Assembly (NCBI RefSeq): GCF_988243305.1
Contig: NZ_OZ547136.1
Direction: 5' to 3' (one strand)
DNA: 64,000 bases
Shown here: one piece after another, positions 27,430 through 64,000 of the stretch
How positions within the stretch are numbered: position 1 is the first letter of the stretch
How the letters are laid out: every line of letters starts with the position of its first letter
Position numbers and translations under genes: made by a program
Notes under the pieces: model-generated
Databases searched by the model: none
Told to the model about the DNA's origin: nothing
Seen by the model: only the letters and a program-made list of their open reading frames with translations

Positions 27430-28272
27430 TTAAAGAATAATCGTCCGATTACCGTAAACAAAGACGCGCTGCGCCAGTACTTTGTAGAGTGCGCGACTTA
27501 AGACGTTTTTCTCGACGTCACGACCTGCGCGCATCATATCTTCAGCTGTGTAGGTATGATCGACATGAATAACGTCCTGCATGATGATTGGACCTTCGTC
27601 CAGATTGTCATTCACATAGTGAGCGGTTGCGCCAATAATCTTCACGCCACGTTCATAGGCCTGGTGATAAGGACGTGCGCCGATAAACGCTGGCAGGAAT
27701 GAATGGTGAATATTGATGATCTTATTCGGGAAGCGTGCCACAAATTCTGGCGTTAATACCCGCATATACTTCGCCAGCACCACGTAGTCAGGCTGATAAG
27801 CATCAATGGCATCCGCCATCTTTTGATCGTGCTCGTTGCGGCTTAACCCTTCATGGCTTACCAGCTCAAACGGAATATCAAAACGCTCAACCAGAGAACG
27901 TAAAGTATCGTGGTTACCAATAACTGCCGCGATTTCGACATCCAGGCCGCCGTAATTGGCTTTCATCAACAAATCGCCAAGGCAATGCGCCTCTTTAGTG
28001 ACCAGAATCACTATCCGGCGACGACCAGCAGGATTCAGCTCACGTACGGAGCCTTCTGGCAATGCGCTGTCGAGATCCGCCAGCAGGGTGGAATCATTAA
28101 AAATTCCTTCCAGTTCCGTGCGCATAAAAAAGCGCCCGGTACGGTGATCAACAAATTCATTGTTCTGTACGATATTTAACTCGTGCTTGTAGCAAATATT
28201 GGTAATACGTGCGATCAGACCTTTTTGGTCCGGACAAATAGTACGCAGAACTTTACGTTGGAGTGAATGCAT
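27430..28272 (-). CDS. purU: formyltetrahydrofolate deformylase
   Basis: 280-aa ORF MHSLQRKVLRTICPDQKGLIARITNICYKHELNIVQNNEF... matches PurU (ACT domain plus formyltransferase domain). Confidence 0.96.
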   Translation of the reverse strand: MHSLQRKVLRTICPDQKGLIARITNICYKHELNIVQNNEFVDHRTGRFFMRTELEGIFNDSTLLADLDSALPEGSVRELNPAGRRRIVILVTKEAHCLGDLLMKANYGGLDVEIAAVIGNHDTLRSLVERFDIPFELVSHEGLSRNEHDQKMADAIDAYQPDYVVLAKYMRVLTPEFVARFPNKIINIHHSFLPAFIGARPYHQAYERGVKIIGATAHYVNDNLDEGPIIMQDVIHVDHTYTAEDMMRAGRDVEKNVLSRALYKVLAQRVFVYGNRTIIL

Positions 28273-51114: not shown

Positions 51115-51470
51115 GCACTCTCCTTGAGTTTTATGCAGGTGTTAATTAGCGGGCAATTGTACCCTGGTTAAGCCTCGGGTGGCAGCATCAGGTCTTGTAT
51201 GGAAAAGCATATCTTTGTAAAGCGGAGGTAATTGCTGGCCTTCAGGCGTGGGCAAACCGCTGCAAGTGGCGAGCGAGTTAATATTTGCGTAGCGAAAATA
51301 TTTAAAAATTGATTTAAATCACATTAACCAGGATTTTCAATGCAACTTCTAAATTAATCCAGATCAATAAAGGGTGAATTATCATATGTAATGTGATCTA
51401 TGTAGGATCATTTGTTACTCCAATGTAGGTATATTCGTCACGTTTTTATAACCATAACGACGGAGCGGAT

Positions 51471-52109
51471 ATGAAAAAGTTAACAGTGGCGGCTTTGGCA
51501 GTAACAACTCTTCTCTCTGGCAGTGCCTTTGCGCATGAAGCAGGCGAATTTTTTATGCGTGCAGGTTCTGCAACCGTACGTCCAACAGAAGGTGCTGGTG
51601 GTACGTTAGGAAGTCTGGGTGGATTCAGCGTGACCAATAACACGCAACTGGGCCTGACGTTTACTTATATGGCAACCGATAACATTGGTGTGGAATTGCT
51701 GGCAGCGACGCCGTTCCGCCATAAAATCGGCACCCGAGCGACCGGCGATATTGCAACCGTTCATCATCTGCCGCCAACACTGATGGCGCAGTGGTATTTT
51801 GGTGATGCCAGCAGCAAATTCCGTCCTTACGTTGGGGCAGGTATTAACTACACCACCTTCTTTGATAATGGATTTAACGATCATGGCAAAGAGGCGGGGC
51901 TTTCCGATCTCAGTCTGAAAGACTCCTGGGGAGCTGCCGGGCAGGTGGGGGTTGATTATCTGATTAACCGTGACTGGTTGGTTAACATGTCAGTGTGGTA
52001 CATGGATATCGATACCACGGCTAAGTACAAATCTGGTGTTACTACCGTAAAAGACTCGGTACGACTGGATCCGTGGGTGTTTATGTTCTCCGCAGGATAT
52101 CGTTTTTAA
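51471..52109 (+). CDS. ompW: outer membrane protein W
   Basis: 212-aa ORF with signal peptide MKKLTVAALAVTTLLSGSAFA and C-terminal aromatic residue (YRF) typical of beta-barrel OMPs. Confidence 0.96.
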   Translation: MKKLTVAALAVTTLLSGSAFAHEAGEFFMRAGSATVRPTEGAGGTLGSLGGFSVTNNTQLGLTFTYMATDNIGVELLAATPFRHKIGTRATGDIATVHHLPPTLMAQWYFGDASSKFRPYVGAGINYTTFFDNGFNDHGKEAGLSDLSLKDSWGAAGQVGVDYLINRDWLVNMSVWYMDIDTTAKYKSGVTTVKDSVRLDPWVFMFSAGYRF

Positions 52110-52154
52110 TTTTCTCTGCAAAACCTCTGCAAAACCCCTCTGCAAAACTGGTCA

Positions 52155-53285
52155 TCAAATGACCAGTTTTTTCCATTCCTTACCGCGTGCGTCGTTGTAA
52201 ATATCGGTCATTTTTTGATTCGAATGGCCTAGCAAAATTTTGGTATCAACCCCCTGCTCTCTGAACAATCGCTCTGATAAAGATCTCTGCTCATGGAAAG
52301 AGGGAGGGGTGCCATTAGCACGCCAGTTGTAATCCACAGAATCCCGGGCTTTTTTAAATGCAACGGTTAATGTTGCTGGCTTAACCATCCCGCCGCGCTT
52401 AGCTGTCCCTTTCGCGTGATGGTGGTGCAATAGCCACGGACTAAGAACGCAATCGCGGCAGGATGACACCACATCATCCAGGGTGAGATTTAATTTATCG
52501 CAACGCAGAGCCAGAGGGATGGCAATCCGGGTTCCTGTTTTTTGCTGTTCGACATGAAGATAACCATCCCGGATATCCGAAAATTGCATTTTGCAAATAT
52601 CTGAAAGGCGCTGGCCTGTCATCAGTGCCAGCAGCATACCGCGCTGTAAAAAGTAACCATCCTTTTCCGCTGCGTTATAAATCATCATCCACTCATCAAA
52701 AGTCAGTCGCTGTCTTGATATCCGCACCTGCGGTTTTTTTGCCGATTCTGCAGGGTTAAAGCCTGGCGGGACATCGCCCGTTTGCTGAGCTTCCCGGAAA
52801 ACATCGATCAGTACTTTCCTGAAAATTTGTCCCATTCTGTTATGTCCTCTGGCCTTGTACTCTTCCAGTACTGATACCACATCTTTTACGGTTATGGCAT
52901 CTAACGGTCTGGTGCCAAAACGTTCATCAAATACCCTGAGAGGGGCCGCTTTCTGTTTCAGCGTGTTGAGTTTGATCTCGCCGTTTTCATATCTTTCCTG
53001 TTGAATTTTTCTGTAATTATTCAGAAAAATGGTAACGGTTGATGAACCGCCGGTATCACTAATAATTTTCTCCTGCAGACTGAGCATTTGTTCCATTTGC
53101 TGCCGGGCAAGACGGCTGTTCGCTTCTGCTGCAATAGTTTCTGCCAGTTTCTGGTCAATACTGCCGAGACCGTGATTTTTGCCTGTTATGGGATGCCTGT
53201 AACGCCAGTAAACTTTGTTATTTCTTTTGTCAAAATACGGAGATAATCCCGGAACATCGGTTTTATATTTTCGCGGGCGCGCCAT
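52155..53285 (-). CDS. int: phage tyrosine integrase (lambda Int family)
   Basis: 376-aa ORF; C-terminal catalytic region with LGHSNQKMTDIYNDARG (Tyr nucleophile context); 3' end overlaps the hairpin adjacent to ompW. Confidence 0.9.
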   Translation of the reverse strand: MARPRKYKTDVPGLSPYFDKRNNKVYWRYRHPITGKNHGLGSIDQKLAETIAAEANSRLARQQMEQMLSLQEKIISDTGGSSTVTIFLNNYRKIQQERYENGEIKLNTLKQKAAPLRVFDERFGTRPLDAITVKDVVSVLEEYKARGHNRMGQIFRKVLIDVFREAQQTGDVPPGFNPAESAKKPQVRISRQRLTFDEWMMIYNAAEKDGYFLQRGMLLALMTGQRLSDICKMQFSDIRDGYLHVEQQKTGTRIAIPLALRCDKLNLTLDDVVSSCRDCVLSPWLLHHHHAKGTAKRGGMVKPATLTVAFKKARDSVDYNWRANGTPPSFHEQRSLSERLFREQGVDTKILLGHSNQKMTDIYNDARGKEWKKLVI

Positions 53286-53511
53286 CTTCCAGTATCCTCT
53301 TCAAAGCAGGGTGATCTGTGGCGATCACCTCCGGCTTGTTTACCATTCCGACAAAGCGAGCTTGCGGATCCACTCGCCAGCGTCTTCCAACTTTTTTGGG
53401 GAGAGGAAATATCATTCCGGCTTTAGCGTATTTACTTAACGTACTCGGAGTAGGGACCGGTTCACTGAATTCCTCTTTTGCCCACTCAGTGAGCAGAATA
53501 AGTCTTGCCAT
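53263..53511 (-). CDS. xis: excisionase-like DNA-binding protein
   Basis: 82-aa ORF MARLILLTEWAKEEF... with a winged-helix pattern similar to lambda Xis (MYLTLQEWNARQ...); overlaps int start by 23 nt. Confidence 0.7.
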   Translation of the reverse strand: MARLILLTEWAKEEFSEPVPTPSTLSKYAKAGMIFPLPKKVGRRWRVDPQARFVGMVNKPEVIATDHPALKRILEDGAPAKI

Positions 53512-53575
53512 GAGCGTCGTTCGCTAATCATGGTCGCCGCCACTATAGCTGGTGGGCAACGACCGGGGTTGAACA

Positions 53576-56050
53576 TTAAAAATCAGCCTGATTCGGGATC
53601 AGTTTTTGCCAGATAGTTGAAACGTATTTTGCCTGGTAACGGGCATCATCCAGCGCATTGTGGCGCTCACCTTCGAATGGAATAGCCGCCCTGGCATCGA
53701 AGTCCATGGCTTTTCCCAGCTCAACGATTGTGCGTACATCGCGATCGTTGTAGTAACGCCACGGGCAGGGGATCCCCTGCCGTTCGTATGAACGGCGCAA
53801 AATCGTGTTGTCGAAGTTGGCTCCATTTCCCCAGACCTGAACAAAAAATTCGCCGGAGTTTTCGTCGATAAATTCCCGCAATTGCAGCAGTGCATCATCT
53901 AACGGGATTTCATCGGTCAGAATGGCAGATTGCGCCTCCCGTGATTGCTTAAGCCACCATTTAATGGTGCCACGATCAATGACTCCGCCAGCAGTATCCA
54001 TATCGATGGTCTTACTAAATTCCGGCCCCATATCTCCGGTTTGCGGATCGAAAAATATTGCACCTATTGAGATAAGCGGGGCATCGGGATTTTTTCCCAT
54101 GGTTTCAAGGTCGATCATCATGTGGTGCCACATTCTGCTGGTGGATGTGATTTCTTGATGACCGTTCACCTTAATTGAGTGATCTGCCGTCTCGCCAGTT
54201 TCATTATCGCTATCGTGATGCTGATTGCCGCCAGTGTTCTCCTTGTGTGGATGTTCAGCGCCTTCCATTTCCTCTGGATCATCTTCCTGAACTTCAGGCT
54301 GATACTCTTCATCGAATGTTTCCTGGTATGTTGCGTCGCCCATTACCGCGCCACAATCAGGGCAGTTGCCGCCGCCGGTCTGACCGCAGGCGGTGCAGAC
54401 TTTTTCCACTTCCTGTTGCGCCACTGATTCAGGCTGTTTCGTTTCTGGCTCGTTTTGTAACGCATTTGGGCTGTTTTGTTCCGCTTTCTGGTCGTTCTGT
54501 TCCGTTTCTTGCTGGTTCTGGTTCACAGAATCGCGGGTCTGGTTCCCCTTAACCCATTTCGGATCATTCGGGTCGCTAATCCCTTCAACAAATTCACCAC
54601 GTGATACTGCAAGCAGTTCATCGGCGTCAGGCTGGCTGATATTGGCTGCCTGCATAATTTTGTTTACTTCGTCAGCGGTAACTTTTACTGGCTCTGGTTG
54701 TGCGGTCGTGTCAGATGCACCAGTATTTTGTTGTGAACCTGAGTATGTACCGTTTTTACGTGCGAAGTATTCCTCTTTTGTGATTTCCGTAGCTCCCAGG
54801 GCCAGTGCTTTTTCCAGACCAGAAAGTTTGTTTGCGCGACCGTATTTTTCGCCGTCCTTATCGGTGAAAAGGAAGTAGAACGGTCCCTCACGCTCTACAG
54901 ATGGTTCGTCTTCCACTTCGCATTCGGTTTTTTCGTTGTCCGGCATTGCCGTTTCCACTGCATCAGTTTCTGGTACTGGTGACGGGAGAGTACCAGCTGT
55001 GCCCTGATTTGTTCCTTCGTCATCTTCAAACACGCCCTTGGTAGTCAGGTATTCAGTGATGTATTTGTTCAGTGCTACGGGATCTTTGTGAATGTCGATC
55101 GGACGCTCACGGACAAGGCCAAAAATAGTCTGACGGTCGTAGCGAACGGCATCGGGTTGTTTGCGCATTGATGCGGAAATGCGCTTCCAGTCTTCGCGAT
55201 CTTTGTCGATAACTTCATTTTTTGCCCAGCGATGGATGCTGCCGTCAATGTTTCCGGTATCAATATCGCCAGGCCAGAGAGCGTAGGCCAGTTCTTCATC
55301 CAGCGTTTTCCATGTCTGCTTGTATTCGCGACAAATGGCGGCAGTGACTGGGTTGATTTTTCCTGCTGAGTTTTCAGTGTTCTGTTGATTGACTCTGGCG
55401 CGGGCGAGATCAACAACAGACGTGTATTTTCCGGTTTCCTTGCGTTCACCTTCGCGACGTTTTTTCCAGATGCGCATCTCTGCCTGAATTTCGGGCCATT
55501 TGGCACCAGGCTTACATTTATGCTTAACCCACCCGATGGCATGCAGCTTAAGCTCCGGATACATGGCGTTAACTTCTGGCATTTTCATCAACGCTTCAAC
55601 GATATGTCCGTCGAATGTTGCCATGTCTTCCTGCAACAATTCCTGTGCGCTAATAACCATATCAACGGTGATGTTTTCACATGTGTCGAACTTAACCATG
55701 ACAGCGTTCTGTACTTCAGGGGCCAGCTTGTCAAAAGTGACGTTCATCGGATCGGATTCAGTCTCAACCGGGACAAAGGAAGCAGACTCCTCATCCCAGC
55801 GGTTTTCCTGCATATATTCAGCATCCCAGGAATCGAGGGCAGGGCGGGGTATACCGGGTTTATCCTCGCAGACAAGAAATTTATAAGCGCAGTCCTGAGC
55901 AGCCGGATAATGCTCCAGGAATTGCCAGTGAAATTTTGCGCGGGCGCGACGTTCATCACCGGCTTCAATGGCAGTGGCTACAGCGACGGCACCTTCTTCC
56001 TTTATTGCCTGTTCGTCCGGAATGGCGGCGCAAATAAAGACTTTACTCAT
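53576..56050 (-). CDS. large prophage exonuclease: RecE/exonuclease VIII-like positional homolog with C-terminal DnaQ-like (DEDDh) 3'-5' exonuclease motifs and an internal CxxC-x8-CxxC zinc ribbon
   Basis: 824-aa ORF; C-terminal motifs MIDLETMG (Exo I), WGNGANFD (Exo II), HNALDDARYQA (Exo III); Cys pair CTACGQTGGGNCPDCG; acidic low-complexity linker; positioned between dicB and xis like lambdoid exo genes. Confidence 0.7.
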   Translation of the reverse strand: MSKVFICAAIPDEQAIKEEGAVAVATAIEAGDERRARAKFHWQFLEHYPAAQDCAYKFLVCEDKPGIPRPALDSWDAEYMQENRWDEESASFVPVETESDPMNVTFDKLAPEVQNAVMVKFDTCENITVDMVISAQELLQEDMATFDGHIVEALMKMPEVNAMYPELKLHAIGWVKHKCKPGAKWPEIQAEMRIWKKRREGERKETGKYTSVVDLARARVNQQNTENSAGKINPVTAAICREYKQTWKTLDEELAYALWPGDIDTGNIDGSIHRWAKNEVIDKDREDWKRISASMRKQPDAVRYDRQTIFGLVRERPIDIHKDPVALNKYITEYLTTKGVFEDDEGTNQGTAGTLPSPVPETDAVETAMPDNEKTECEVEDEPSVEREGPFYFLFTDKDGEKYGRANKLSGLEKALALGATEITKEEYFARKNGTYSGSQQNTGASDTTAQPEPVKVTADEVNKIMQAANISQPDADELLAVSRGEFVEGISDPNDPKWVKGNQTRDSVNQNQQETEQNDQKAEQNSPNALQNEPETKQPESVAQQEVEKVCTACGQTGGGNCPDCGAVMGDATYQETFDEEYQPEVQEDDPEEMEGAEHPHKENTGGNQHHDSDNETGETADHSIKVNGHQEITSTSRMWHHMMIDLETMGKNPDAPLISIGAIFFDPQTGDMGPEFSKTIDMDTAGGVIDRGTIKWWLKQSREAQSAILTDEIPLDDALLQLREFIDENSGEFFVQVWGNGANFDNTILRRSYERQGIPCPWRYYNDRDVRTIVELGKAMDFDARAAIPFEGERHNALDDARYQAKYVSTIWQKLIPNQADF

Positions 56051-56222
56051 TTTGTTTTACCTCATTACAGATTTAAGGGTGAACAAATCCCTGCCATTGC
56101 TGGCATATAAGAATGAAACCGGATATTTATTACGGAACTGTTTTAAAGACCTGCCGGGATTTCGATATCAACTGGCTCTCCGGAAACAAGAAAAACTGTC
56201 AGAACAAGTGCAAATGCTGTAT

Positions 56223-56411
56223 TCATTGCCAGCATCCTTTTTGTATCGGACGTAAACGGGCCAGCATTGAAAGAATGCATATTTTATTTAATAGCTCCCG
56301 TTCGTGTTTTCTCTTGTTAATGGCATCTTCAGTAAATACAGGGTTACTGATAGTGACACCAATTTCAAAACAACCTTCAGACGTATTAACGTTTGGTAAT
56401 AACGTTTCCAT
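56223..56411 (-). CDS. dicB: cell division inhibitor DicB
   Basis: 62-aa ORF METLLPNVNTSEGCFEIGVTISNPVFTEDAINKRK... from ATG 56411 (GAGG SD upstream) inside track ORF 56223-56516; lies about 170 nt downstream of DicF as in the dicB operon. Confidence 0.75.
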   Translation of the reverse strand: METLLPNVNTSEGCFEIGVTISNPVFTEDAINKRKHERELLNKICILSMLARLRPIQKGCWQ

Positions 56412-56585
56412 TATCGCGTCCTCAACAATGAATTTTGTGATGCGGTGCCTGGTGCCTCCAGGTGACGTTAACCAGTTAACAATTAACGCCGGATACAGAG
56501 AATCCACCCATAACACTGTTTTTGGTTTTAACTGTTCCGCGTGCGCTCAGCCGCATTCACCACATCACAAAATTCACTTTAAAAA

Positions 56586-56638
56586 GGGCGGCAGAGCAGT
56601 CACGGAGTAAAACTGATACCGCCAAACGTCACCAGAAA
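56586..56638 (-). ncRNA. dicF: DicF small regulatory RNA (ftsZ-targeting)
   Basis: Reverse complement reads TTTCTGGTGACGTTTGGCGGTATCAGTTTTACTCCGTGACTGCTCTGCCGCCC followed by a T-run; matches the 53-nt DicF sequence as recalled, with its 3' terminator hairpin. Confidence 0.75.
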
Positions 56639-56977
56639 ATTGATAACAGAGGGCGTTGCAGCGGGGTTGTCACTTAAGCGTATGGTCAACCTGACAACCC
56701 GGTGTCCTCAACGGGGGAAGGAATAACCCCGCCATACTTACCGCCGCGCCATTTCGCGGATTGCCACAACCGGAAGCGCACGGTCGACGAAAATTTAACG
56801 ACAGGCTATCTATGAACCAGCTACCTCGCCGTGCGCTTTCGCGTTATGGTCTGACTTTTCAGGGAAATATCCTTTCAGTAAACTGTCAGTGCCGGATTCT
56901 TATCCGTGTCCGGCGCACGACCACACGCTGTCACGAGAGGTCTCCATTCTCAACCAGTAACCTCAATGGAGGATAAA

Positions 56978-57172
56978 ATGTCAGAGCAGGAGTTAAAACT
57001 TGGTGCATGTTATTGTGTTCTCAAGGAGCTGGTACACATGCTTCCATCTACTCAGTATCAACAGTTAGTTGGCAATTTAAATCAGCGAATCGAAGCTATG
57101 TTAAAATCTGATGGTTTTAATAACGTAGAAACGCTGATGCTAAAAAGATATCTTGATGGATTAATCAGATAA
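56978..57172 (+). CDS. hypothetical small protein (64 aa) encoded convergently within the early-left region
   Basis: ATG at 56978 preceded by a strong SD (TGGAGGATAAAATG); MSEQELKLGACYCVLKELVHMLPSTQYQQLVGNLNQRIEAMLK...; inside track ORF 56906-57172; no competing minus-strand ORF over 25 aa in this interval. Confidence 0.5.
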   Translation: MSEQELKLGACYCVLKELVHMLPSTQYQQLVGNLNQRIEAMLKSDGFNNVETLMLKRYLDGLIR

Positions 57173-57499
57173 CATTTTTTTACGGCGTTCATATTCGTTA
57201 ATATTTATGAAGCCTGTTGCCAGAAGCAGTTCGTTAATTTCATGGTTGTTTGGCTGTTTCTGGCTCTTTGAGCTGGGATCTTCCACTTCTTTTTCTGCAA
57301 ATTGTTTTGCTGTATCCTCTGTGCCATGGATATTTAAAGCTGTATCTGAAAACAGCCCAGTAAACGCATCGCGCACATTACGAGCCATATTATCAGTGTC
57401 TTTTTTTGTTACCGATTCCAATTCAAGTTCGTTCAGACGATGACGAAGTGTGTGTGCTGCAATCTCCTGGATTGAAGGAGGTAAATCTTTAAATTCCAT
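57161..57499 (-). CDS. hypothetical early-left protein (112 aa)
   Basis: Track ORF 57161-57511; start placed at second ATG 57499 (MEFKDLPPSIQEIAAHTL...) which has a GAGG SD; 3' end overlaps the convergent plus-strand ORF by 12 nt. Confidence 0.55.
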   Translation of the reverse strand: MEFKDLPPSIQEIAAHTLRHRLNELELESVTKKDTDNMARNVRDAFTGLFSDTALNIHGTEDTAKQFAEKEVEDPSSKSQKQPNNHEINELLLATGFININEYERRKKMLSD

Positions 57500-57510
57500 C
57501 GTCAACCTCA

Positions 57511-57744
57511 TCAGTCAGTGTTTCTTGCTAACCAGCGATGCGCGCCAGCTGCGGTTTTAAACGTTTTACTTTTGGTATACGTCATCGCGGTGAAGGTGCC
57601 GTCCTGGTTAGGGAACACACCGCATACCAGAGATTCGTTGTTGCCAAGATCGATAGTATCCATGCTGACCTCATTTCCCCTTAACGCCGGGGTAGCGGAA
57701 CAAAAACCTGCTGCATAGTTATTAAAGTTGAACCCTGCCGTCAT
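57511..57744 (-). CDS. hypothetical early-left small protein (possibly YdfB-like); start ambiguous (57744 or internal ATG 57663)
   Basis: Track ORF of 77 aa; both ATG 57744 and ATG 57663 (MDTIDLGNNESLVCGVFPNQDGTF...) have GAGG SD sequences upstream; first gene downstream of the OL-type operator. Confidence 0.55.
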   Translation of the reverse strand: MTAGFNFNNYAAGFCSATPALRGNEVSMDTIDLGNNESLVCGVFPNQDGTFTAMTYTKSKTFKTAAGAHRWLARNTD

Positions 57745-57846
57745 GTTCTTACGCCTCGGGCTGGCTACTTACCCCCTGACCACTGCTTGGTAACTCGAAG
57801 TATTGCCCGGCGTTCTGTGGGGCGGGGTGGGTTGGTATGTTGTTAA

Positions 57847-57860
57847 GGTAACAAGAGTTA
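57847..57860. promoter_or_regulatory. candidate left operator (OL) for the prophage repressor
   Basis: 14-bp palindrome GTAACAAGAGTTAC (GTAAC-N4-GTTAC), same motif as the two sites between the cI-like and cro-like genes. Confidence 0.55.
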
Positions 57861-57903
57861 CCTTTCGAGTCAATACAATGTTGCAAAAGGTACATTCGAG
57901 GGC

Positions 57904-57930
57904 ATAAAAAACCCGCAATGAATGCGGGTT
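57904..57930 (-). terminator. rho-independent terminator after the repressor gene
   Basis: Minus-strand hairpin ACCCGCATTCATTGCGGGT followed by a T-run immediately after the cI-like stop. Confidence 0.7.
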
Positions 57931-57935
57931 CTGAC

Positions 57936-58610
57936 TCAGTCTAAGTATTGATGTATTTGTGAAACTTTACCTTTAATGGTGTAACCACCATTAAGTTCGA
58001 TGGGTTTGTAAAGCGGATTCAGTGACAACAGATAGATGTTTGGTCCGTCAATCGCAACTTTTTTTAGTGTTACGTTTGGCGTTCCTTCCAATTGGATTAA
58101 GATTATTTTTCCCACCAGTTCTCTAATGTTACTTGAGCATGGTGTGATCAGCACGGTAGATCCGTCGGGGATGGTTGGGAGGCCGTTAGAGTTTGTCATC
58201 GCATCTCCCTCAACATGCAATAAAAAAGAGTTTTCAGCGGTTTTTGTCATGACATCAACCCAATTCTTAATACCAGGAATCTCGGTTACTGGACAACTCA
58301 TATCCCAATAACCAGCCTGTTCCCACGTTAAAACGGGCAACCGGGCGATGTTGTCACTAATGTAAGGGTACTGATTCAGACGCAGATCATCGGCTTTATC
58401 GTGACCGTCCTTTCCATAAAGAATCCATTCAGGAGATTTGGAAAGCAATTTTGACAGTAGATACAAATTCTCACCGTCAGGTTTTGAAGAGCCATTTTCC
58501 CATTTTGTTACGGATACACGAGATATGCCGATTGCTTTCGCAACCTGCTGTTGGGTTAATCCAACGTCTTTTCGACGATTCCGAATACGTTCGCTGATAG
58601 TGTTTTTCAT
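57936..58610 (-). CDS. prophage CI-like repressor (XRE HTH N-terminal domain plus S24/LexA-like autopeptidase C-terminal domain)
   Basis: Track ORF 57936-58709; start placed at ATG 58610 (MKNTISERIRNRRKDVGLTQQQVAKAIGISRVSVTKWENG...) by close resemblance to the P22 C2 N-terminus; C-terminal Ser/Lys dyad context (GDAM...KK). Confidence 0.85.
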   Translation of the reverse strand: MKNTISERIRNRRKDVGLTQQQVAKAIGISRVSVTKWENGSSKPDGENLYLLSKLLSKSPEWILYGKDGHDKADDLRLNQYPYISDNIARLPVLTWEQAGYWDMSCPVTEIPGIKNWVDVMTKTAENSFLLHVEGDAMTNSNGLPTIPDGSTVLITPCSSNIRELVGKIILIQLEGTPNVTLKKVAIDGPNIYLLSLNPLYKPIELNGGYTIKGKVSQIHQYLD

Positions 58611-58624
58611 GTAACCAATGTTAC
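58611..58624. promoter_or_regulatory. candidate right operator site (PRM-proximal)
   Basis: Palindrome GTAACCAATGTTAC immediately upstream of the repressor start. Confidence 0.55.
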
Positions 58625-58658
58625 TACCAAGTGATGTTGCTATGGTTGACATTGTTAT

Positions 58659-58672
58659 GTAACTATTGTTAC
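58659..58672. promoter_or_regulatory. candidate right operator site (PR-proximal)
   Basis: Palindrome GTAACTATTGTTAC adjacent to a TTGACA hexamer (58646-58651) upstream of the cro-like gene. Confidence 0.55.
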
Positions 58673-58701
58673 CCTTCTGCTCGAAATAACAGGAGAGTTT
58701 T

Positions 58702-58917
58702 ATGTTCAAAGATGATGTTCTGCGCTATTTCAAAAAAAAGCGACTAGTAGCTGAGGCTCTTGGAATTTCACATGTGGCTGTTGTGCGGTGGAAAGCAGTT
58801 ATTCCCAAACTTCGCGCAATGGAACTGGATGAAATTACTAACGGTGAATTGAAATACAACCCAGAACTTTACAAGAAGCAGGATAGCACCTCAAACGAAG
58901 GAAAGAATGATTCATGA
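58702..58917 (+). CDS. Cro-like/YdaS-family HTH DNA-binding protein
   Basis: 71-aa ORF with SD AGGAGAG; HTH segment LVAEALGISHVAVVRW; divergent from the repressor gene. Confidence 0.7.
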   Translation: MFKDDVLRYFKKKRLVAEALGISHVAVVRWKAVIPKLRAMELDEITNGELKYNPELYKKQDSTSNEGKNDS

Positions 58918-59339
58918 AAATCAAGCATGAACACATCCGCATGGCGATGAATGTCTGGGCGCATCCGGACGGCGAAAAAGTGCCGGCTGCGAAAATTACC
59001 AAAGCGTATTTCGAGCTGGGAATGACGTTCCCGGAACTGTATGACGACAGCCATCCGGAAGCCCTGGCCCGTAATACCCAGAAAATTTTCCGTTGGCTGG
59101 ATAAAGACACCCCTGATGCTGTTGAAAAAATGCAGGCTCTGTTACCGGCGATCGAAAAGGCGATGCCGCCTTTGCTGGTGGCCCGTATGCGCAGCCACAG
59201 TTCTGAATATTACCGTGAGATCGTCGAACGGAGGGATCGGCTGGTGAAGGATGTCGATGATTTTGTTGCGTCAGCGGTTGTTTTGTATGACCAGATGAAT
59301 CGCGGCGGCCCGGCAGGGAATGCTGTGGTGATGCACTAA
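58914..59339 (+). CDS. CII-like/YdaT-family prophage regulator
   Basis: 141-aa ORF overlapping the cro-like stop; size and position match the YdaT family that follows ydaS in Rac-type prophages. Confidence 0.55.
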   Translation: MKIKHEHIRMAMNVWAHPDGEKVPAAKITKAYFELGMTFPELYDDSHPEALARNTQKIFRWLDKDTPDAVEKMQALLPAIEKAMPPLLVARMRSHSSEYYREIVERRDRLVKDVDDFVASAVVLYDQMNRGGPAGNAVVMH

Positions 59340-59361
59340 AAGCACGGTGTTCGGGGGTTTT

Positions 59362-60324
59362 ATGAGCAGCAAGCTTCATGGTCTTGTCTGGGAAGGGTGC
59401 GCCTTCACCGGCATGATCTTATCCAGGGTGGCGGTTATGGCCCGTCTTGCAGACTACAGCAATGACGAGGGCGTGTCATGGCCTGCCATTGAAACTATCC
59501 GGCGTCAGATCGGTGCAAGAAGTGAATCCACAGTGAAATCGGCTATTGCAGAACTGGCGAAAGAGGGCTGGCTGACGAAGGAAGAGCGTAAGGTCGGTGG
59601 GCGTAATGTAAGCAATATCTATCGGCTTAATGTGGAAAAACTCGAAGCAGCTGCGGCGGCGGCGCGTGAGTCATATAAACCGAAAAGAAAAATTAGCCCG
59701 GCAAAAAATGACCCGTTAACAGTTGACCCGTCAAATATTGACCCCTCAACGGTTGACCCGTCAAATTTTGATGGATCAACTGTTGATAAAAAACTGCCGA
59801 TTAGGGGGGCGATGATTGACCCCGATCCGTCAGTATTAAAACCTGATCCGTCAGATAAAAGATCTTCTTGTCCGGACGCTTCGCAACCGGACCCGCAGAC
59901 GGCTGAACAGGATTTTTTAACCCGACACCCTGACGCGGTTGTGTTCAGTGCGAAAAAACGCCAGTGGGGAAGTCAGGAAGATTTGGTGTGCGCACAGTGG
60001 ATCTGGGGACGAATCGTGAGTCTTTACGAGCAGGCGGCCAGCTATGATGGCGAGATCACTAGACCGAAAGAACCCAACTGGACAGCATGGGCCAATGACG
60101 TTCGCACAATGCGGATGCTGGATGGCAGAACTCACAGACAAATTTGTGAAATGTTTGGGCGTCTCCAGCGGGATTCGTTCTGGGTAAAAAACATCATGAG
60201 TCCGGCAAAACTCCGGGAAAAATGGGATGAACTGGTTATCCGCCTGGGGCGTTCGCCTGCGCAGCGTTGCGTGAATCACATTTCTGAACCGGACACTGAA
60301 ATTCCGCCGGGCTTCAGGGGGTAA
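59362..60324 (+). CDS. phage replication initiator (lambda O-like, HTH N-terminal domain) containing internal iteron-like repeats
   Basis: Track ORF from GTG 59347; ATG 59362 has a GGGGG SD; N-terminal winged-helix segment (LSRVAVMARLADYSNDEGVSWPAIETIRRQIG); central DPS-rich linker encoded by repeated TTGACCCGTCAA units. Confidence 0.6.
   Translation: MSSKLHGLVWEGCAFTGMILSRVAVMARLADYSNDEGVSWPAIETIRRQIGARSESTVKSAIAELAKEGWLTKEERKVGGRNVSNIYRLNVEKLEAAAAAARESYKPKRKISPAKNDPLTVDPSNIDPSTVDPSNFDGSTVDKKLPIRGAMIDPDPSVLKPDPSDKRSSCPDASQPDPQTAEQDFLTRHPDAVVFSAKKRQWGSQEDLVCAQWIWGRIVSLYEQAASYDGEITRPKEPNWTAWANDVRTMRMLDGRTHRQICEMFGRLQRDSFWVKNIMSPAKLREKWDELVIRLGRSPAQRCVNHISEPDTEIPPGFRG
59708..59790. repeat. iteron-like direct repeats (candidate phage replication origin) inside the replication gene
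   Basis: About five copies of a 12-15 bp unit (TTGACCCGTCAAAT and variants, each an internal dyad TTGAC/GTCAA) followed by an A-rich stretch GATAAAAAACTG. Confidence 0.6.
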
Positions 60325-60364
60325 GTGTTAATTTCTGGTCATGAGGTAATTTTCAGGAGGACTT

Positions 60365-60640
60365 GTGGCAAAAGTTTTTACACAAGAAGAGCGGGAAAAA
60401 ATTAAAGGGCTGATCGTGGAATTCGTACGCCTTAACGGACGAGGCACGATTCGGCAGTTATCGGATGAAATTGGTGTCAGTCATACGTCTGTCGGTCGTT
60501 TATGCATGGAGCTGGCCGCCAGTGGTGATGTTTACAATTCCGGTTACGGAGTATTCCCGTCTGAGCAGGCGCGCAAGGACTGGCAAAACGCCCGCAAAAA
60601 AACTCTCAAGGGCAAAGCTGAAGAAACCATCTGTGGTTGA
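60365..60640 (+). CDS. hypothetical small protein with predicted winged-helix/HTH segment
   Basis: 91-aa ORF from GTG with SD CAGGAGGAC; HTH-like GTIRQLSDEIGVSHTSVGRLCMELAASG. Confidence 0.5.
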   Translation: MAKVFTQEEREKIKGLIVEFVRLNGRGTIRQLSDEIGVSHTSVGRLCMELAASGDVYNSGYGVFPSEQARKDWQNARKKTLKGKAEETICG

Positions 60641-60788
60641 TCCGGACCTTATCTGGCTATTACCTGACGGAGAAATACGTCGCTACGACAGGCGTCAGAA
60701 CATAATCTGTCGCGAGTGCCGGAAGAGCGAAGTTATGCAGCGCGTACTGGCGTTTTATCAGGGGAATTTTCAGGAGGTAGCGCAGTGA
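60633..60788 (+). CDS. hypothetical micro-protein (51 aa), translationally coupled
   Basis: GTG at 60633 overlaps the upstream stop (GTGGTTGA); its stop overlaps the next start (GTGA); part of track ORF 60465-60788. Confidence 0.35.
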   Translation: MVDPDLIWLLPDGEIRRYDRRQNIICRECRKSEVMQRVLAFYQGNFQEVAQ

Positions 60789-61273
60789 GTGCACCGGCAA
60801 CCATTCTTGATATGTGCTGTGGCAGCCGTATGTTCTGGTTCGATAAGAATGACGACCGGGCGATATTTAGCGATATCAGAAAAGAAGAGCACACATTGTG
60901 TGATGGACGACGCCTGATTATCAGTCCTGACCTGATAGCAGATTTTCGAGCATTACCATTTGCAGACGCATCGTTTCCGGTTGTTGTATTCGACCCTCCG
61001 CATCTTGAGTGTGTTGGTGATAAAGCCTGGATGGGAAAGAAATATGGACGGTTGAATAAAGATACCTGGCGTGATGATTTGCGGCAGGGATTTAAAGAAG
61101 CTTTTCGTGTGTTGTGGCCACATGGCGTTCTGATTTTTAAATGGAATGAAACGCAAATATCTGTCCGCCAGATATTGGCACTAACCGACGCGAAACCAAT
61201 CATCAGCCAGCGCACCGGTAAGAACGATAAAACACATTGGATTATTTTTGTGAAGGAGGCGACCAGTGGGTAA
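60785..61273 (+). CDS. putative SAM-dependent (DNA) methyltransferase, orphan
   Basis: Track ORF 60716-61273; GTG at 60785 preceded by SD CAGGAGG; motif I-like ILDMCCGSRMF and motif IV-like FDPPHL; no adjacent restriction endonuclease gene. Confidence 0.5.
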   Translation: MSAPATILDMCCGSRMFWFDKNDDRAIFSDIRKEEHTLCDGRRLIISPDLIADFRALPFADASFPVVVFDPPHLECVGDKAWMGKKYGRLNKDTWRDDLRQGFKEAFRVLWPHGVLIFKWNETQISVRQILALTDAKPIISQRTGKNDKTHWIIFVKEATSG

Positions 61274-61520
61274 ATCAAAATGCCAGGTTTATGGCAACAA
61301 GATAGAACCGTGTACGACCCTGGCAAAATCCCTTGAGCATGATGCTGAATACACGATGCGAAAAGGTCTGCTGATATACAAAATCTGGAATGAGAGTTTA
61401 ACTCGCGGTCCTGATTTTGTGATGTTGCGTTCCGGTGAATTTTCTAAATTACCAGTTCGGGTTTCATTTTGTCCGTTCTGTGGTGAAAGTCTGAAAACGT
61501 GGGAGAACAGAAATGAATGA
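61266..61520 (+). CDS. hypothetical zinc-ribbon protein
   Basis: 84-aa ORF with Cys pairs C6/C16 and CPFC near the C-terminus; overlaps neighbours by 8 nt on each side. Confidence 0.45.
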   Translation: MGKSKCQVYGNKIEPCTTLAKSLEHDAEYTMRKGLLIYKIWNESLTRGPDFVMLRSGEFSKLPVRVSFCPFCGESLKTWENRNE

Positions 61521-61824
61521 AATTAAAGAAATACCAGTAGTACGTGATGAATATGGCTACTGGACGCATCCTGAATATGAAAAATTCTGTGACGGTCGGG
61601 AATATATTTCAACGGAAGAGTTTAACGCCTGGATGGAGGAAAATAATCTTCAATACGTCCTCTGCTTCAGAGATGAAGGATGTGCTGACCTTGATGCGTG
61701 TGATGCTGATATTTCTGCATGGGAACCGGAACGACCAGAGGGCAATGGATGGTTTATTGGTTCAATACATGACACCGAAGATGGCCCGGTTTGTGTATGG
61801 CTGAGAAATAAGGCCGAAGCATAA
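61513..61824 (+). CDS. hypothetical acidic phage protein
   Basis: 103-aa ORF, D/E-rich (DEGCADLDACDADISAWEPERPEG). Confidence 0.45.
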   Translation: MNEIKEIPVVRDEYGYWTHPEYEKFCDGREYISTEEFNAWMEENNLQYVLCFRDEGCADLDACDADISAWEPERPEGNGWFIGSIHDTEDGPVCVWLRNKAEA

Positions 61825-61952
61825 AGGCTATAAACCGACTAACAACTAAATACTGAAGATTTAAATCAGAAACGATTTTTATTAAATCCTTAACCGGAGG
61901 GATTCCTGCACCCTCAGAACATCAGGAGGCCGTCCGAAAGGGCGGTAGTGAA

Positions 61953-62135
61953 ATGCGAAAATTCAAAATAATTATTGAAACGGGAATAGCCGGTGGAGAT
62001 TTCGAGGATGAATTCGAAGTGGATGATGATGCAACACCAGATGAAATACAGGATGAAGCTAAAGATATTTTCTTTAACTACTGCAATTACTCATACCACG
62101 AAATAAAAGACGAAGAGGAAGAACAAAATGGCTGA
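61953..62135 (+). CDS. hypothetical very acidic small protein (60 aa)
   Basis: About one third of residues are D/E (FEDEFEVDDDATPDEIQDEAKD...KDEEEEQNG). Confidence 0.45.
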   Translation: MRKFKIIIETGIAGGDFEDEFEVDDDATPDEIQDEAKDIFFNYCNYSYHEIKDEEEEQNG

Positions 62136-62304
62136 TTTTGGTTCAACTAAATATAACGCCAGTTTTGAAGAATGGCATGAACTGTTAATGGATTATGCAG
62201 AGTTACGCGGTGGAAGTGCCGCTGATGCTGAAGCATGGCGTGATGATTATGAAGCAGGGAAAACACCGGTCGAAGCATATTGTGATGAGTGGGGCGATGA
62301 ATGA
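62128..62304 (+). CDS. hypothetical acidic small protein (58 aa)
   Basis: ATG 62128 overlaps upstream stop (ATGGCTGA); MADFGSTKYNASFEEWHELLMDYAELRGGSAADAEAWRDDYEAGKTPVEAYCDEWGDE; below track size cutoff. Confidence 0.4.
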   Translation: MADFGSTKYNASFEEWHELLMDYAELRGGSAADAEAWRDDYEAGKTPVEAYCDEWGDE

Positions 62305-62660
62305 GCGAGATTAATTATCAGGAAGGGCATGAAAAGGTAGGGCAGGCAAAACCAGTGGCATGGCGATATCGCTACGTGAAAAAAGGCGTTACAGACTTTC
62401 AGGGGAAGCAGTGGGTTGGTGACTGGAAATATGTCCCGACAAAAGAGGATTGTAACGACAGACCAAACTATGAAATTCAGGCGTTATTCACGGCCCCGCC
62501 AGCTTCGGTGACATCAGAAGGACTGGTTAAAGCTGTGCGCTTTTATGAACAGGTACGGCGTGAGGATCCGCCAGTTGAAACCGGAGCATGGAAAGACGCT
62601 ATTGACTGGGTACTCAAGGAGGCCTGCCTGGTTGTAAACACGGGCATCAAAGGAGGCTGA
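62301..62660 (+). CDS. hypothetical phage protein
   Basis: 119-aa ORF, start overlaps upstream stop (ATGA). Confidence 0.45.
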   Translation: MSEINYQEGHEKVGQAKPVAWRYRYVKKGVTDFQGKQWVGDWKYVPTKEDCNDRPNYEIQALFTAPPASVTSEGLVKAVRFYEQVRREDPPVETGAWKDAIDWVLKEACLVVNTGIKGG

Positions 62661-62876
62661 ATGGGTATTGCCGCAAGTTATACCATGCATCTCTATTGTG
62701 ATTGCCGCCAGTGTACGGATGGCAAATATCAGTCGCCAGATTTTGGTGAGTATATCGGTACGTCATGGGCTGGCTGTGCAAAAGAGGCACGTAAAGATGG
62801 GTGGCGAATAAGTGCCGACAAAACGCGTGCTTTTGCGCCAAGGCATAAAATTTTGAGGAGCAACAAAGGAGAGTGA
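62661..62876 (+). CDS. hypothetical Cys-rich small protein
   Basis: 71-aa ORF with CDCRQC motif, immediately after the previous stop. Confidence 0.4.
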   Translation: MGIAASYTMHLYCDCRQCTDGKYQSPDFGEYIGTSWAGCAKEARKDGWRISADKTRAFAPRHKILRSNKGE

Positions 62877-62877
62877 T

Positions 62878-63096
62878 GTGCCTACATTATTCAGAAAAGA
62901 ATATCCGCGAAAAAGTAGAGCGACAGAATTTTTGTTTCTCATTCTGTTTATCGTGTTGATGATACCGATATCCCCGTTAATTCTGGTATGGGGAATCGGA
63001 AAAATAATTGAGCCAGTTATTGAATTGTATAACGACGTGGTATGGGCTCCGTTCAACACACTGCACAATAAAATTAATCCGTATAAGGAAAACTGA
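62878..63096 (+). CDS. hypothetical small membrane protein
   Basis: 72-aa ORF with one strongly hydrophobic segment (FLFLILFIVLMIPISPLILVWGIG). Confidence 0.4.
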   Translation: MPTLFRKEYPRKSRATEFLFLILFIVLMIPISPLILVWGIGKIIEPVIELYNDVVWAPFNTLHNKINPYKEN

Positions 63097-63097
63097 T

Positions 63098-63361
63098 ATG
63101 GCAACTTTGACAAAAAAAGAACAGGCATGGTTGAACGAATTACAGGACGTTCTTGATCGCTGTCCATCACCGAAAAAAATTGGTTTTTACACCATTGGCG
63201 ATAAAAGCATTTACCTGTATGACCTGCGCCGCATGGATGAAATCATGGAGGCTCTTGATAATCGTTCGTCAATGGATTGGTGTGTTGCTGTCCATGATAT
63301 GAATGCAGGGTTTGATGAAAAGATTTTGTTCCCCTCATCAGTTGAAAGCACTGCGGGTTAA
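63098..63361 (+). CDS. hypothetical phage protein
   Basis: 87-aa ORF from ATG 63098 (MATLTKKEQAWLNELQDV...) within track ORF 63008-63361. Confidence 0.4.
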   Translation: MATLTKKEQAWLNELQDVLDRCPSPKKIGFYTIGDKSIYLYDLRRMDEIMEALDNRSSMDWCVAVHDMNAGFDEKILFPSSVESTAG

Positions 63362-63371
63362 GGAGTAACAC

Positions 63372-64000
63372 ATGACCACTATTACCAAAGAACGTATTGA
63401 ATTGTTCATTAAAAACCCGCTTGAAAACGGGCTTACCCGTGGTGAACAAATGGAACTGGCACGGATTGCGCTGGCATCGCTGGAAGCAGATCCAGTTAAA
63501 CGAGTTAACTCAGATCAGATGCGCCGAGTCTGCTTAGAAGCTAATCGCCATTTAGATAAATATGACGCGATGGCGAAAGAGGTAAATAAGTTGCTTGGAC
63601 GCATCGCCCCGCCAGCGCCGGTAGTGCCGGAAGAAGCAACTCCGGAAAACGTAGAAATGCTCTCTGGCTATGTTTCCACGTACAAATTAACCGATAGCGA
63701 GCGCGATATTGCTGCCGAAATATGGAACGCCTGCCGCACCGCCATGCTTCAGTCCGGAAACTTTCGGGAAAGCAAGAATTCGTCAACCAATAATTTTCGG
63801 GAAATCCCGGAAGCGTCAACCAGCTCTCCGGTAACTCCGGCTCTTCTGCCTGGTGGTTTCACCATTGAGGAGGCGAAGGAATTACATGAAGACCTGGTAC
63901 GCAGCCACATAAGCAAGGCCTTAAGTGGCGAAAAGATGAAAAAGAAAGATCGCGATGCTGATTTGCGCTGGATTCATGGCGTTATAGTTCAGGCAGCGTG
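63372..64000 (+). CDS. hypothetical phage protein, partial (runs off window end)
   Basis: ATG 63372 with SD AAGGAG; open frame MTTITKERIELFIKNPLENGLTRGEQMELARIALASLEADPV... without stop to 64000. Confidence 0.5.
   Translation, partial: MTTITKERIELFIKNPLENGLTRGEQMELARIALASLEADPVKRVNSDQMRRVCLEANRHLDKYDAMAKEVNKLLGRIAPPAPVVPEEATPENVEMLSGYVSTYKLTDSERDIAAEIWNACRTAMLQSGNFRESKNSSTNNFREIPEASTSSPVTPALLPGGFTIEEAKELHEDLVRSHISKALSGEKMKKKDRDADLRWIHGVIVQAA

What the first reader, a model, noticed from the sequence alone, without database searches (positions are those of the whole stretch)
52110..52180. Triple direct repeat and hairpin at the ompW/integrase junction (candidate att core)
The 45-bp gap between the ompW stop and the integrase stop holds three tandem copies of CTCTGCAAAAC(C), immediately followed by a perfect hairpin AAACTGGTCAT-CAA-ATGACCAGTTT with a T-run. 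The integrase reading frame ends inside this hairpin. Phage att cores commonly rebuild the 3' end or terminator of the host target gene, so this looks like the attachment junction, with the repeats as possible integrase arm-type sites.
Basis: seen in the sequence. Interest (0 to 1): 0.4.

Follow-up and report, generated by a model that had tools for sequence, protein, structure and literature searches.

The report
Prophage attL arm beside ompW
The three repeats and the hairpin are real, but they are not the crossover site: they lie in the phage-derived arm of a known E. coli ompW prophage junction, most likely as integrase arm-binding sites plus a replacement terminator, which is an ordinary lambda-like layout.

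Summary
There are three exact CTCTGCAAAAC copies (52114-52148), a perfect 12-bp hairpin (52144-52170) with a T-run, and the int stop codon (52155-52157) sits inside the hairpin.

The att core is not in the gap. Aligning this junction with an empty K-12 site, with attR of lysogens and with an intact attP puts the shared core at 51991-52018, inside the ompW coding sequence. Everything to the right of it is phage DNA: a substitute ompW 3' end, the stop codon, the repeats, the hairpin, int and xis.

The prophage is the published PPompW type, found in about 32% of complete E. coli genomes. Its 121-bp att was defined by Nakamura et al. 2021.

The arm-type-site idea holds up on comparative evidence:
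- A fourth motif copy sits at exactly -130 in the P arm, where similarity between diverged phages begins.
- Int carries the lambda arm-binding domain.
- Int relatives that target ushA, icd or potC keep three tandem copies of the same or a related motif next to the int stop.

The hairpin is best read as a phage-supplied bidirectional terminator; one compensatory base-pair change supports it.

This is ordinary biology and of low interest. One side observation: integration swaps a variable segment of OmpW, probably a surface loop.

The parts
51471..52109 (+). ompW coding sequence. It is chimeric: host-derived up to the core and phage-derived from 52019 to the stop codon.
   Evidence: ORF; Pfam OmpW E 1.6e-80; alignment with the K-12 empty site.
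51991..52018 (.). Common att core: a 28-bp block identical in attL, attR, attB and attP. The crossover must lie within it. It contains the inverted hexamers GTGGTA (51995-52000) and TACCAC (52013-52018), which are candidate core-type Int sites flanking the overlap region.
   Evidence: Four- and five-way alignments A2 and A3; core positions in all loci. Reading the inverted hexamers as Int sites is inference.
52019..52111 (+). Phage-borne substitute 3' end of ompW. Together with the core it makes up the published 121-bp imperfect att duplication (51991-52111). It changes 7 OmpW residues.
   Evidence: Identical in the attP of phage 204576; GenBank 'duplication due to insertion of PPompW' feature; codon table; PMC8112680.
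52114..52124 (+). Repeat 1, CTCTGCAAAAC. Proposed P'-arm arm-type Int-binding site.
52125..52135 (+). Repeat 2, CTCTGCAAAAC. Proposed P'-arm arm-type Int-binding site.
52138..52148 (+). Repeat 3, CTCTGCAAAAC. Proposed P'-arm arm-type Int-binding site. It overlaps the left arm of the hairpin by 5 bases.
52144..52172 (.). Perfect 12-bp hairpin (loop CAA) with a T-run on the + strand and an A-run before it. Proposed bidirectional intrinsic terminator for ompW (+, six U) and int (-, four U).
   Evidence: Inverted repeat I2; fold z -5.4 on + and -3.7 on -; compensatory C-G to T-A change in three strains. The simple terminator scanner did not call it.
52155..53285 (-). int: a lambda-family tyrosine integrase with an N-terminal arm-binding domain.
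   Evidence: Pfam PF09003 E 7e-22 and PF00589 E 1.3e-16; full-length match to lambda Int structure 5j0n, E 8.5e-56.
53263..53511 (-). xis (excisionase), overlapping the start of int.
   Evidence: Pfam PF07825 E 1.3e-7; annotated as excisionase in RefSeq lysogens.

Best explanation
The region is the int-proximal (P') arm of the left junction (attL) of a lambdoid prophage of the PPompW type.

How the site works:
- The phage integrates by Int-mediated site-specific recombination within a 28-bp core (51991-52018) inside the 3' part of ompW.
- Its attP carries, to the right of the core, 91 bp that re-encode the OmpW C-terminus and stop codon, so the gene stays intact after insertion.
- Next come three tandem CTCTGCAAAAC sites, then a hairpin that overlaps the int stop codon.

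Proposed roles:
- The three repeats are the P'1-P'3-like arm-type sites, bound by the N-terminal arm-binding domain of Int.
- Together with a fourth copy 130 bp to the left of the core in the P arm, and an IHF-like site, they would let Int bridge arm and core to build the recombination complex, as in lambda.
- The hairpin with its flanking A and T runs is a phage-supplied bidirectional intrinsic terminator. It replaces the native ompW terminator, which is left behind at attR, and keeps the convergent ompW and int transcripts apart.

Shown here: the position of the core, the phage origin of the repeats and hairpin, the motif copy in the P arm, and conservation across relatives.

Inferred only: Int binding to the repeats, and termination at the hairpin.
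For: Junction:
- The K-12 empty site is identical up to 52018, diverges through the following ~47 bp, and is unrelated after 52111.
- attR of O157:H7 F7386 reads phage DNA, then the 28-bp core, then a K-12-type ompW tail and yciE.
- Phage 204576 holds an intact attP: P arm, core, the same substitute ompW tail, three repeats, hairpin, int.
- Window 51991-53285 is 100% identical to the GenBank PPompW records, whose depositors mark 51991-52111 as the insertion duplication. PMC8112680 defined this att by attP PCR.
- The repeat-plus-hairpin segment occurs in 1721 of 5426 complete genomes. In every listed row it lies under a phage integrase gene next to ompW.

Arm sites:
- Int has Pfam Arm-DNA-bind_1 (E 7e-22) and aligns with lambda Int over its full length.
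- In the 44-kb prophage L004 the 9-mer CTGCAAAAC occurs only four times: three at attL and one at attR, exactly -130 from the core.
- In five diverged P arms, similarity starts exactly at that invariant 9-mer. An IHF-like AATCA(A/G)NC(A/G)GTTA follows it.
- Across 11 attL or attP variants, TCTGCAAAA is invariant in every copy, although the adjacent OmpW segment differs.
- Int relatives at 54-58% identity, inserted at ushA, keep three CTGCAAAAC copies at the same 11 and 13 bp spacing next to the int stop. Their N-domain is 59-64% identical to this Int, against 45-48% for the core-binding domain.
- Relatives at icd (51% identical) and potC (44%) have three tandem copies of the related motif TTCCCCAAAAC or YTCTCCAAAAY.
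- The geometry matches lambda. Lambda's three tandem arm-site matches abut its int stop, and its P1 at -141..-133 has the same orientation, against -145..-135 here.

Terminator:
- Fold z is -5.4 on + and -3.7 on -.
- There is one compensatory C-G to T-A change.
- The ushA and icd relatives also place a hairpin after the rebuilt stop codon.
Against: - No binding or termination experiment is available.
- No second, inverted P2-like copy was recognised in the P arm.
- No IHF consensus lies between the core and the repeats. The repeats are also about 55 bp further from the core than lambda's P' sites.
- One relative with a near-identical N-domain (L081) has no repeats downstream of int.
- The consensus terminator scanner did not report the hairpin. 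The stem has only 4 G-C pairs, and the minus-strand tail has only 4 U.
- The single compensatory change may be one evolutionary event.
Confidence: 0.8

Rival explanations
1. One reading: the 45-bp gap (repeats and/or hairpin) is the att core where strand exchange occurs.
For: It lies between a host gene and int, and hairpins or terminators are often part of att cores at tRNA genes. No tool result supports it.
Against: attR and the empty attB contain none of this sequence. The only block shared by attL, attR, attB and attP is 51991-52018, plus the imperfect ompW tail up to 52111. No second copy of the repeats is present at attR apart from the single P-arm motif.
Confidence: 0.02
2. The repeats are a functionless slippage product, or they bind a factor other than Int (Xis, Fis, or a regulator of int expression).
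For: Copy number varies: one strain has 5 copies, as expected for slippage-prone tandem DNA. No binding data exist.
Against: The motif also sits singly at a fixed -130 position in otherwise diverged P arms. It is kept three times, at the same spacing, in relatives only ~55% identical and with a different target gene. Motif similarity tracks N-domain similarity. In lambda, the Xis and Fis sites lie in the P arm, not the P' arm (established knowledge, Landy 1989).
Confidence: 0.1
3. The hairpin is not a terminator. It would instead be a 3' stem-loop that stabilises or destabilises int mRNA (a sib-like retroregulator), or a DNA palindrome bound by a protein.
For: The int stop codon lies inside it. 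The minus-strand U-run is short (4 U). The scanner did not call it.
Against: Unlike lambda sib, it is on the int side of the core, so it stays linked to int in both the phage and prophage states and cannot act as an integration-dependent switch. The + strand has a canonical stem plus six U. Relatives supply a hairpin after the rebuilt host gene at a different position, away from the int stop, which points to termination of the host gene as the shared function.
Confidence: 0.15

Closest known systems
PPompW prophages of STEC and EPEC (Nakamura et al. 2021, PLoS Pathog, PMC8112680; GenBank LC567818-LC567841)
   Same: 100% identical over 51991-53285. Same integration site and same 121-bp imperfect att duplication, which was defined experimentally from attP PCR products.
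   Different: That paper does not mention arm-type sites (0 occurrences) or the hairpin. The window's prophage is collinear with PPompW_132418 only up to about 56919.
Phage lambda attP (P1, P2, core, P'1-P'3; Int, Xis, IHF)
   Same: Int is 36% identical over its full length and has the same three domains. Both have three tandem arm sites abutting the int stop. Both have a same-orientation P-arm site about 135-145 bp from the core centre, followed by an IHF-like site, and xis overlaps int.
   Different: The arm motif differs (CTGCAAAAC against AGTCACTAT). The P' sites lie at +108..+142 here instead of +55..+84, because 91 bp of host-gene coding sequence sit in between. No P2-like inverted site or H'-like IHF site was recognised. 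The core lies inside a protein-coding gene.
Phage 21 / e14 integration into icd (Hill et al. 1989; summarised in PMC6379469), represented here by phage 4A7
   Same: Int is 51% identical. The phage carries a replacement 3' end of the target gene next to int, then a hairpin and three tandem 11-mers (TTCCCCAAAAC), with one further copy in the P arm.
   Different: The target gene and core differ. Three of the 11 motif positions differ. The hairpin precedes the repeats there, rather than following them and overlapping the int stop.

Membership tests
Lambda-type heterobivalent tyrosine integrase attachment site (arm-type plus core-type sites) | Integrase with an N-terminal arm-binding domain plus core-binding and catalytic domains | tested here: met
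   PF09003 E 7e-22, PF22022 (24.3 bits, below its curated cut-off of 27), PF00589 E 1.3e-16. Full-length alignment to lambda Int 5j0n; the GQR, HExRSLSxRL and LLGH...Y motifs are aligned.
Lambda-type heterobivalent tyrosine integrase attachment site (arm-type plus core-type sites) | A common core shared by attP, attB, attL and attR | tested here: met
   A 28-bp identical block at 51991-52018 in all four site types.
Lambda-type heterobivalent tyrosine integrase attachment site (arm-type plus core-type sites) | A repeated motif distinct from the core, present on both arms of attP | tested here: met
   Three copies in the P' arm and one at -130 in the P arm. These are the only four CTGCAAAAC in a 44-kb prophage. 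The P-arm copy is invariant and marks where similarity begins.
Lambda-type heterobivalent tyrosine integrase attachment site (arm-type plus core-type sites) | The arm motif follows the N-domain rather than the core or target | tested here: met
   Relatives at ushA keep CTGCAAAAC three times (N-domain 59-64% identical). Relatives at icd and potC have CCCCAAAAC or CTCCAAAAC (47-50%). Lambda's motif is unrelated (39%).
Lambda-type heterobivalent tyrosine integrase attachment site (arm-type plus core-type sites) | Accessory bending-protein (IHF) sites between arm sites and core | tested here: inconclusive
   An IHF consensus match (perfect or one mismatch) lies about 20 bp inside the P-arm motif. 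None lies between the core and the P' repeats.
Lambda-type heterobivalent tyrosine integrase attachment site (arm-type plus core-type sites) | Physical binding of the Int N-domain to the arm motif | not testable with these tools
   Needs gel-shift or footprinting experiments.
Intrinsic (Rho-independent) terminator | A stable stem-loop immediately followed by a U-run | tested here: inconclusive
   12-bp perfect stem (4 G-C pairs) with six U after the CUGGUCAU/AUGACCAG stem; z -5.4; one compensatory pair. The consensus scanner did not call it.
Intrinsic (Rho-independent) terminator | Transcript 3' ends at the U-run | not testable with these tools
   Needs Term-seq or 3' RACE.
Integration that replaces the 3' end of a protein-coding gene (phage 21 / e14-icd type) | The phage carries a duplicate of the target's 3' end that keeps the ORF intact, and the displaced original remains at attR | tested here: met
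   attP carries the tail. ompW stays a full 212-aa ORF. A remnant annotated as an OmpW pseudogene lies at attR.

The most novel reading that the evidence does not exclude
The phage-borne ompW tail may be more than a neutral prosthesis: it may be a lysogenic-conversion cassette.

- Integration replaces 7 residues in what is predicted to be the last extracellular loop of OmpW. The host sequence NYKLGGAQQHD becomes KYKSGVTTVKD.
- Different PPompW-type phages carry at least four alleles of this segment, one of them 5 residues longer.
- The flanking beta-strand codons and the att arms stay nearly invariant.

OmpW is a receptor for TraN-alpha-mediated conjugation (PMC10833342). It is treated as a common phage receptor and is the colicin S4 receptor (own knowledge). 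The swap could therefore change the lysogen's susceptibility to phages, colicins or plasmid transfer.
Probability: 0.25. Interest if true: 0.5.

Novelty: new member of a known kind. Interest (0 to 1): 0.2.

Why it matters
- It corrects where this very common prophage recombines: it is present in about a third of complete E. coli genomes, and the core lies inside ompW.
- It gives a concrete, testable arm-site motif (CTGCAAAAC, three copies plus one) for an Int clade that targets the 3' ends of ompW and ushA. A related motif serves the relatives that sit next to icd and potC.
- This helps in annotating att boundaries of STEC/EPEC effector-carrying prophages and in designing excision or integration assays.
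- It does not change any concept. The architecture is that of lambda and phage 21.

Tried and rejected
- A second copy of the core or of the ompW tail was sought in the window and not found. attR lies beyond the window, so it was taken from complete genomes.
- Rfam at a permissive threshold found nothing in 51300-53700.
- The consensus terminator scan did not list the hairpin, probably because it extends the stem into the T-run. I relied on folding and covariation instead.
- No convincing P2-like inverted arm site was found in the P arm. GTTAAAAAC matches 6 of 9 positions but is better explained as part of the IHF-like site.
- The IMG/VR scan was mostly uninformative for the arms, because the prophage contigs are trimmed at the int stop. 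Only 9 loci had downstream DNA.
- The lambda GenBank feature 'int 4' (27814-27854) does not coincide with the arm-consensus matches at 27786-27815. I used the consensus matches.
- The literature search found no description of arm-type sites for this Int or for phage 21 in the held library. Such work may exist in subscription journals.

Full report
**Observation.**
- ompW ends at 52109 and int ends, on the minus strand, at 52155. The gap between the two stop codons is 45 bp.
- Three exact CTCTGCAAAAC copies lie at 52114, 52125 and 52138.
- A perfect 12-bp inverted repeat follows: AAAACTGGTCAT, loop CAA, ATGACCAGTTTT, at 52144-52170, running into a T-tract. The int stop codon straddles the left arm and the loop.
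- No other exact copy of the 11-mer exists in the 64-kb window.
- The hairpin folds far better than shuffled sequence, z = -5.4 on the + strand.

**Where the junction is.** A megablast of ompW plus the gap against 5,426 complete E. coli genomes splits them into two groups. About 1,714 match through int. The rest match only up to two bases past the ompW stop.
- Against a K-12-type empty site, identity is perfect up to 52018. About 47 bp are then heavily substituted, the last 44 bp of ompW are nearly identical again, and everything after TAATT (52111) is unrelated.
[quoted passage not shown] The K-12-type ompW tail, the native terminator and yciE come next.
- A GenBank record of phage 204576 holds the uninterrupted attP: a P arm like that of the O157 attR, the same 28-bp block, the window-type ompW tail, the three repeats, the hairpin and int.
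- The variant tail therefore travels with the phage and the host tail stays at attR. Strand exchange must occur within 51991-52018, inside ompW. The gap with the repeats and hairpin is phage DNA in the int-proximal (P') arm.
- The 28-bp block contains the inverted hexamers GTGGTA and TACCAC, 12 bp apart. These are plausible core-type sites, but that is inference.

**Already described.** Window 51991-53285 is 100% identical to the 'PPompW' prophage records. Their depositors annotate 51991-52111 as the insertion duplication. Nakamura et al. 2021 (PMC8112680) defined this 121-bp att by sequencing attP PCR products. They do not discuss arm-type sites. ompW is a routinely reported prophage site in STEC.

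**The repeats.**
- Int carries the lambda arm-binding domain (PF09003, E 7e-22). It aligns with lambda Int over its full length, with the catalytic motifs in place, and xis overlaps its start.
- In a complete 44-kb PPompW, CTGCAAAAC occurs only four times: the three P' copies and one copy in the P arm. That P-arm copy sits exactly 130 bp before the core, in the same orientation, in all three sequences checked.
- When five diverged P arms are aligned, similarity begins exactly at this invariant 9-mer. It continues through an IHF-like AATCA(A/G)NC(A/G)GTTA towards the core. Upstream of the motif the phages are unrelated.
- Across 11 attL or attP variants, the 9 bases TCTGCAAAA are invariant in every copy. 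The neighbouring OmpW-coding segment exists in several different alleles. One strain has five copies instead of three.
- Int relatives of 54-58% identity from IMG/VR sit at the 3' end of ushA. They carry three CTGCAAAAC copies at the same 11 and 13 bp spacing next to the int stop. Their arm-binding domain is more conserved (59-64% identical) than their core-binding domain (45-48%).
- The 51% relative (phage 4A7, a phage-21-like icd integrator) has three tandem copies of TTCCCCAAAAC, and 4A7 also has a P-arm copy. The 44% relative (potC) has three tandem copies of the related YTCTCCAAAAY or TTCCCCAAAAC.
- In lambda, the three tandem arm-consensus matches also abut the int stop. Lambda P1 lies at -141..-133 in the same orientation, compared with -145..-135 here.
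- This is the pattern expected of arm-type Int sites. Binding itself is not shown.
- Three points weigh against a complete match. No P2-like inverted copy was found. No IHF consensus lies between the core and the repeats. One relative (L081) lacks the repeats.

**The hairpin.**
- On the + strand it is a stem followed by six U, directly after the rebuilt ompW. On the - strand it begins in the last int codons and is followed by four U.
- It replaces the native ompW terminator (GACCCCGTAATATACGGGGTC), which is left at attR.
- Three strains carry a compensatory C-G to T-A change. The change in the arm that lies within int is synonymous.
- The icd and ushA relatives also supply a hairpin after the rebuilt stop codon, although there it precedes the repeats.
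- I read it as a bidirectional terminator that insulates the convergent ompW and int transcripts.
- It cannot work like lambda sib, because it stays on the int side of the core in both the phage and the prophage state.
- The simple scanner missed it and Rfam has nothing here.

**Comparison and novelty.** This is a lambda-type attL of the gene-3'-end-replacing kind typified by phage 21 and e14 at icd (PMC6379469), in a prophage whose att is already published. The only additions are three:
- the core placed at 51991-52018;
- the arm motif assigned, together with its distribution across the clade;
- the terminator reading.

That makes it a new member of a known kind and of low interest.

**Side observation.** Integration changes seven residues of OmpW, NYKLGGAQQHD to KYKSGVTTVKD. 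At least four phage-borne alleles of this segment exist, one of them 5 residues longer. By the topology of an eight-stranded barrel this should be the last extracellular loop, which is inference. OmpW is a conjugation receptor and is treated as a phage receptor, so a receptor-modifying role is possible but untested.

Noticed in passing
window 52023-52052; L007, L008, L016-L020: Prophage integration swaps 7 OmpW residues (host NYKLGGAQQHD becomes KYKSGVTTVKD). Other lysogens carry different phage-borne alleles: KYKSGVNTVKD, KYKSDGRKLAKGSYSDN (5 residues longer) and SYKFNGTPVKDA. The flanking strand codons are almost unchanged. This is probably the last surface loop of a protein used as a receptor by TraN-alpha conjugation, phages and colicin S4.
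   Followed up: partly
L016 (E. coli F1022) about 1506-1565; L018, L019: Strain F1022 has five tandem copies of the 11-mer instead of three. F1022, P15-25 and ETEC4073 share a compensatory C-G to T-A change in the hairpin stem.
   Followed up: yes
L079, L085, L086, L095, L099 (IMG/VR), downstream of int: Int relatives of 54-58% identity are inserted at the 3' end of ushA. They carry the same three CTGCAAAAC repeats, preceded by a terminator-like hairpin. L081 has a near-identical N-domain but no such repeats, which is unexplained.
   Followed up: partly
L003 2700-2772 (O157:H7 F7386, phage side of attR): A 73-bp stretch of prophage DNA near attR is about 90% identical to the chromosomal yecE/yecD region. 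This matches the secondary 'attB-in-PP_1' site described by Nakamura et al. 2021 for prophage-in-prophage integration.
   Followed up: no
window 56107-64000: The window's prophage is collinear with PPompW_132418 only up to about 56919 (about 96% identity beyond int) and unrelated after that, so it is a mosaic relative rather than the same phage. The 824-aa exonuclease ORF (53576-56050) is intact here but frameshifted in PPompW_132418.
   Followed up: no
hit H39 (E. coli Iso00225): A diverged ompW allele (86.5% identity) aligns only up to query position 546, which is window 52016 at the end of the core. This suggests yet another tail or another element at the same site.
   Followed up: no
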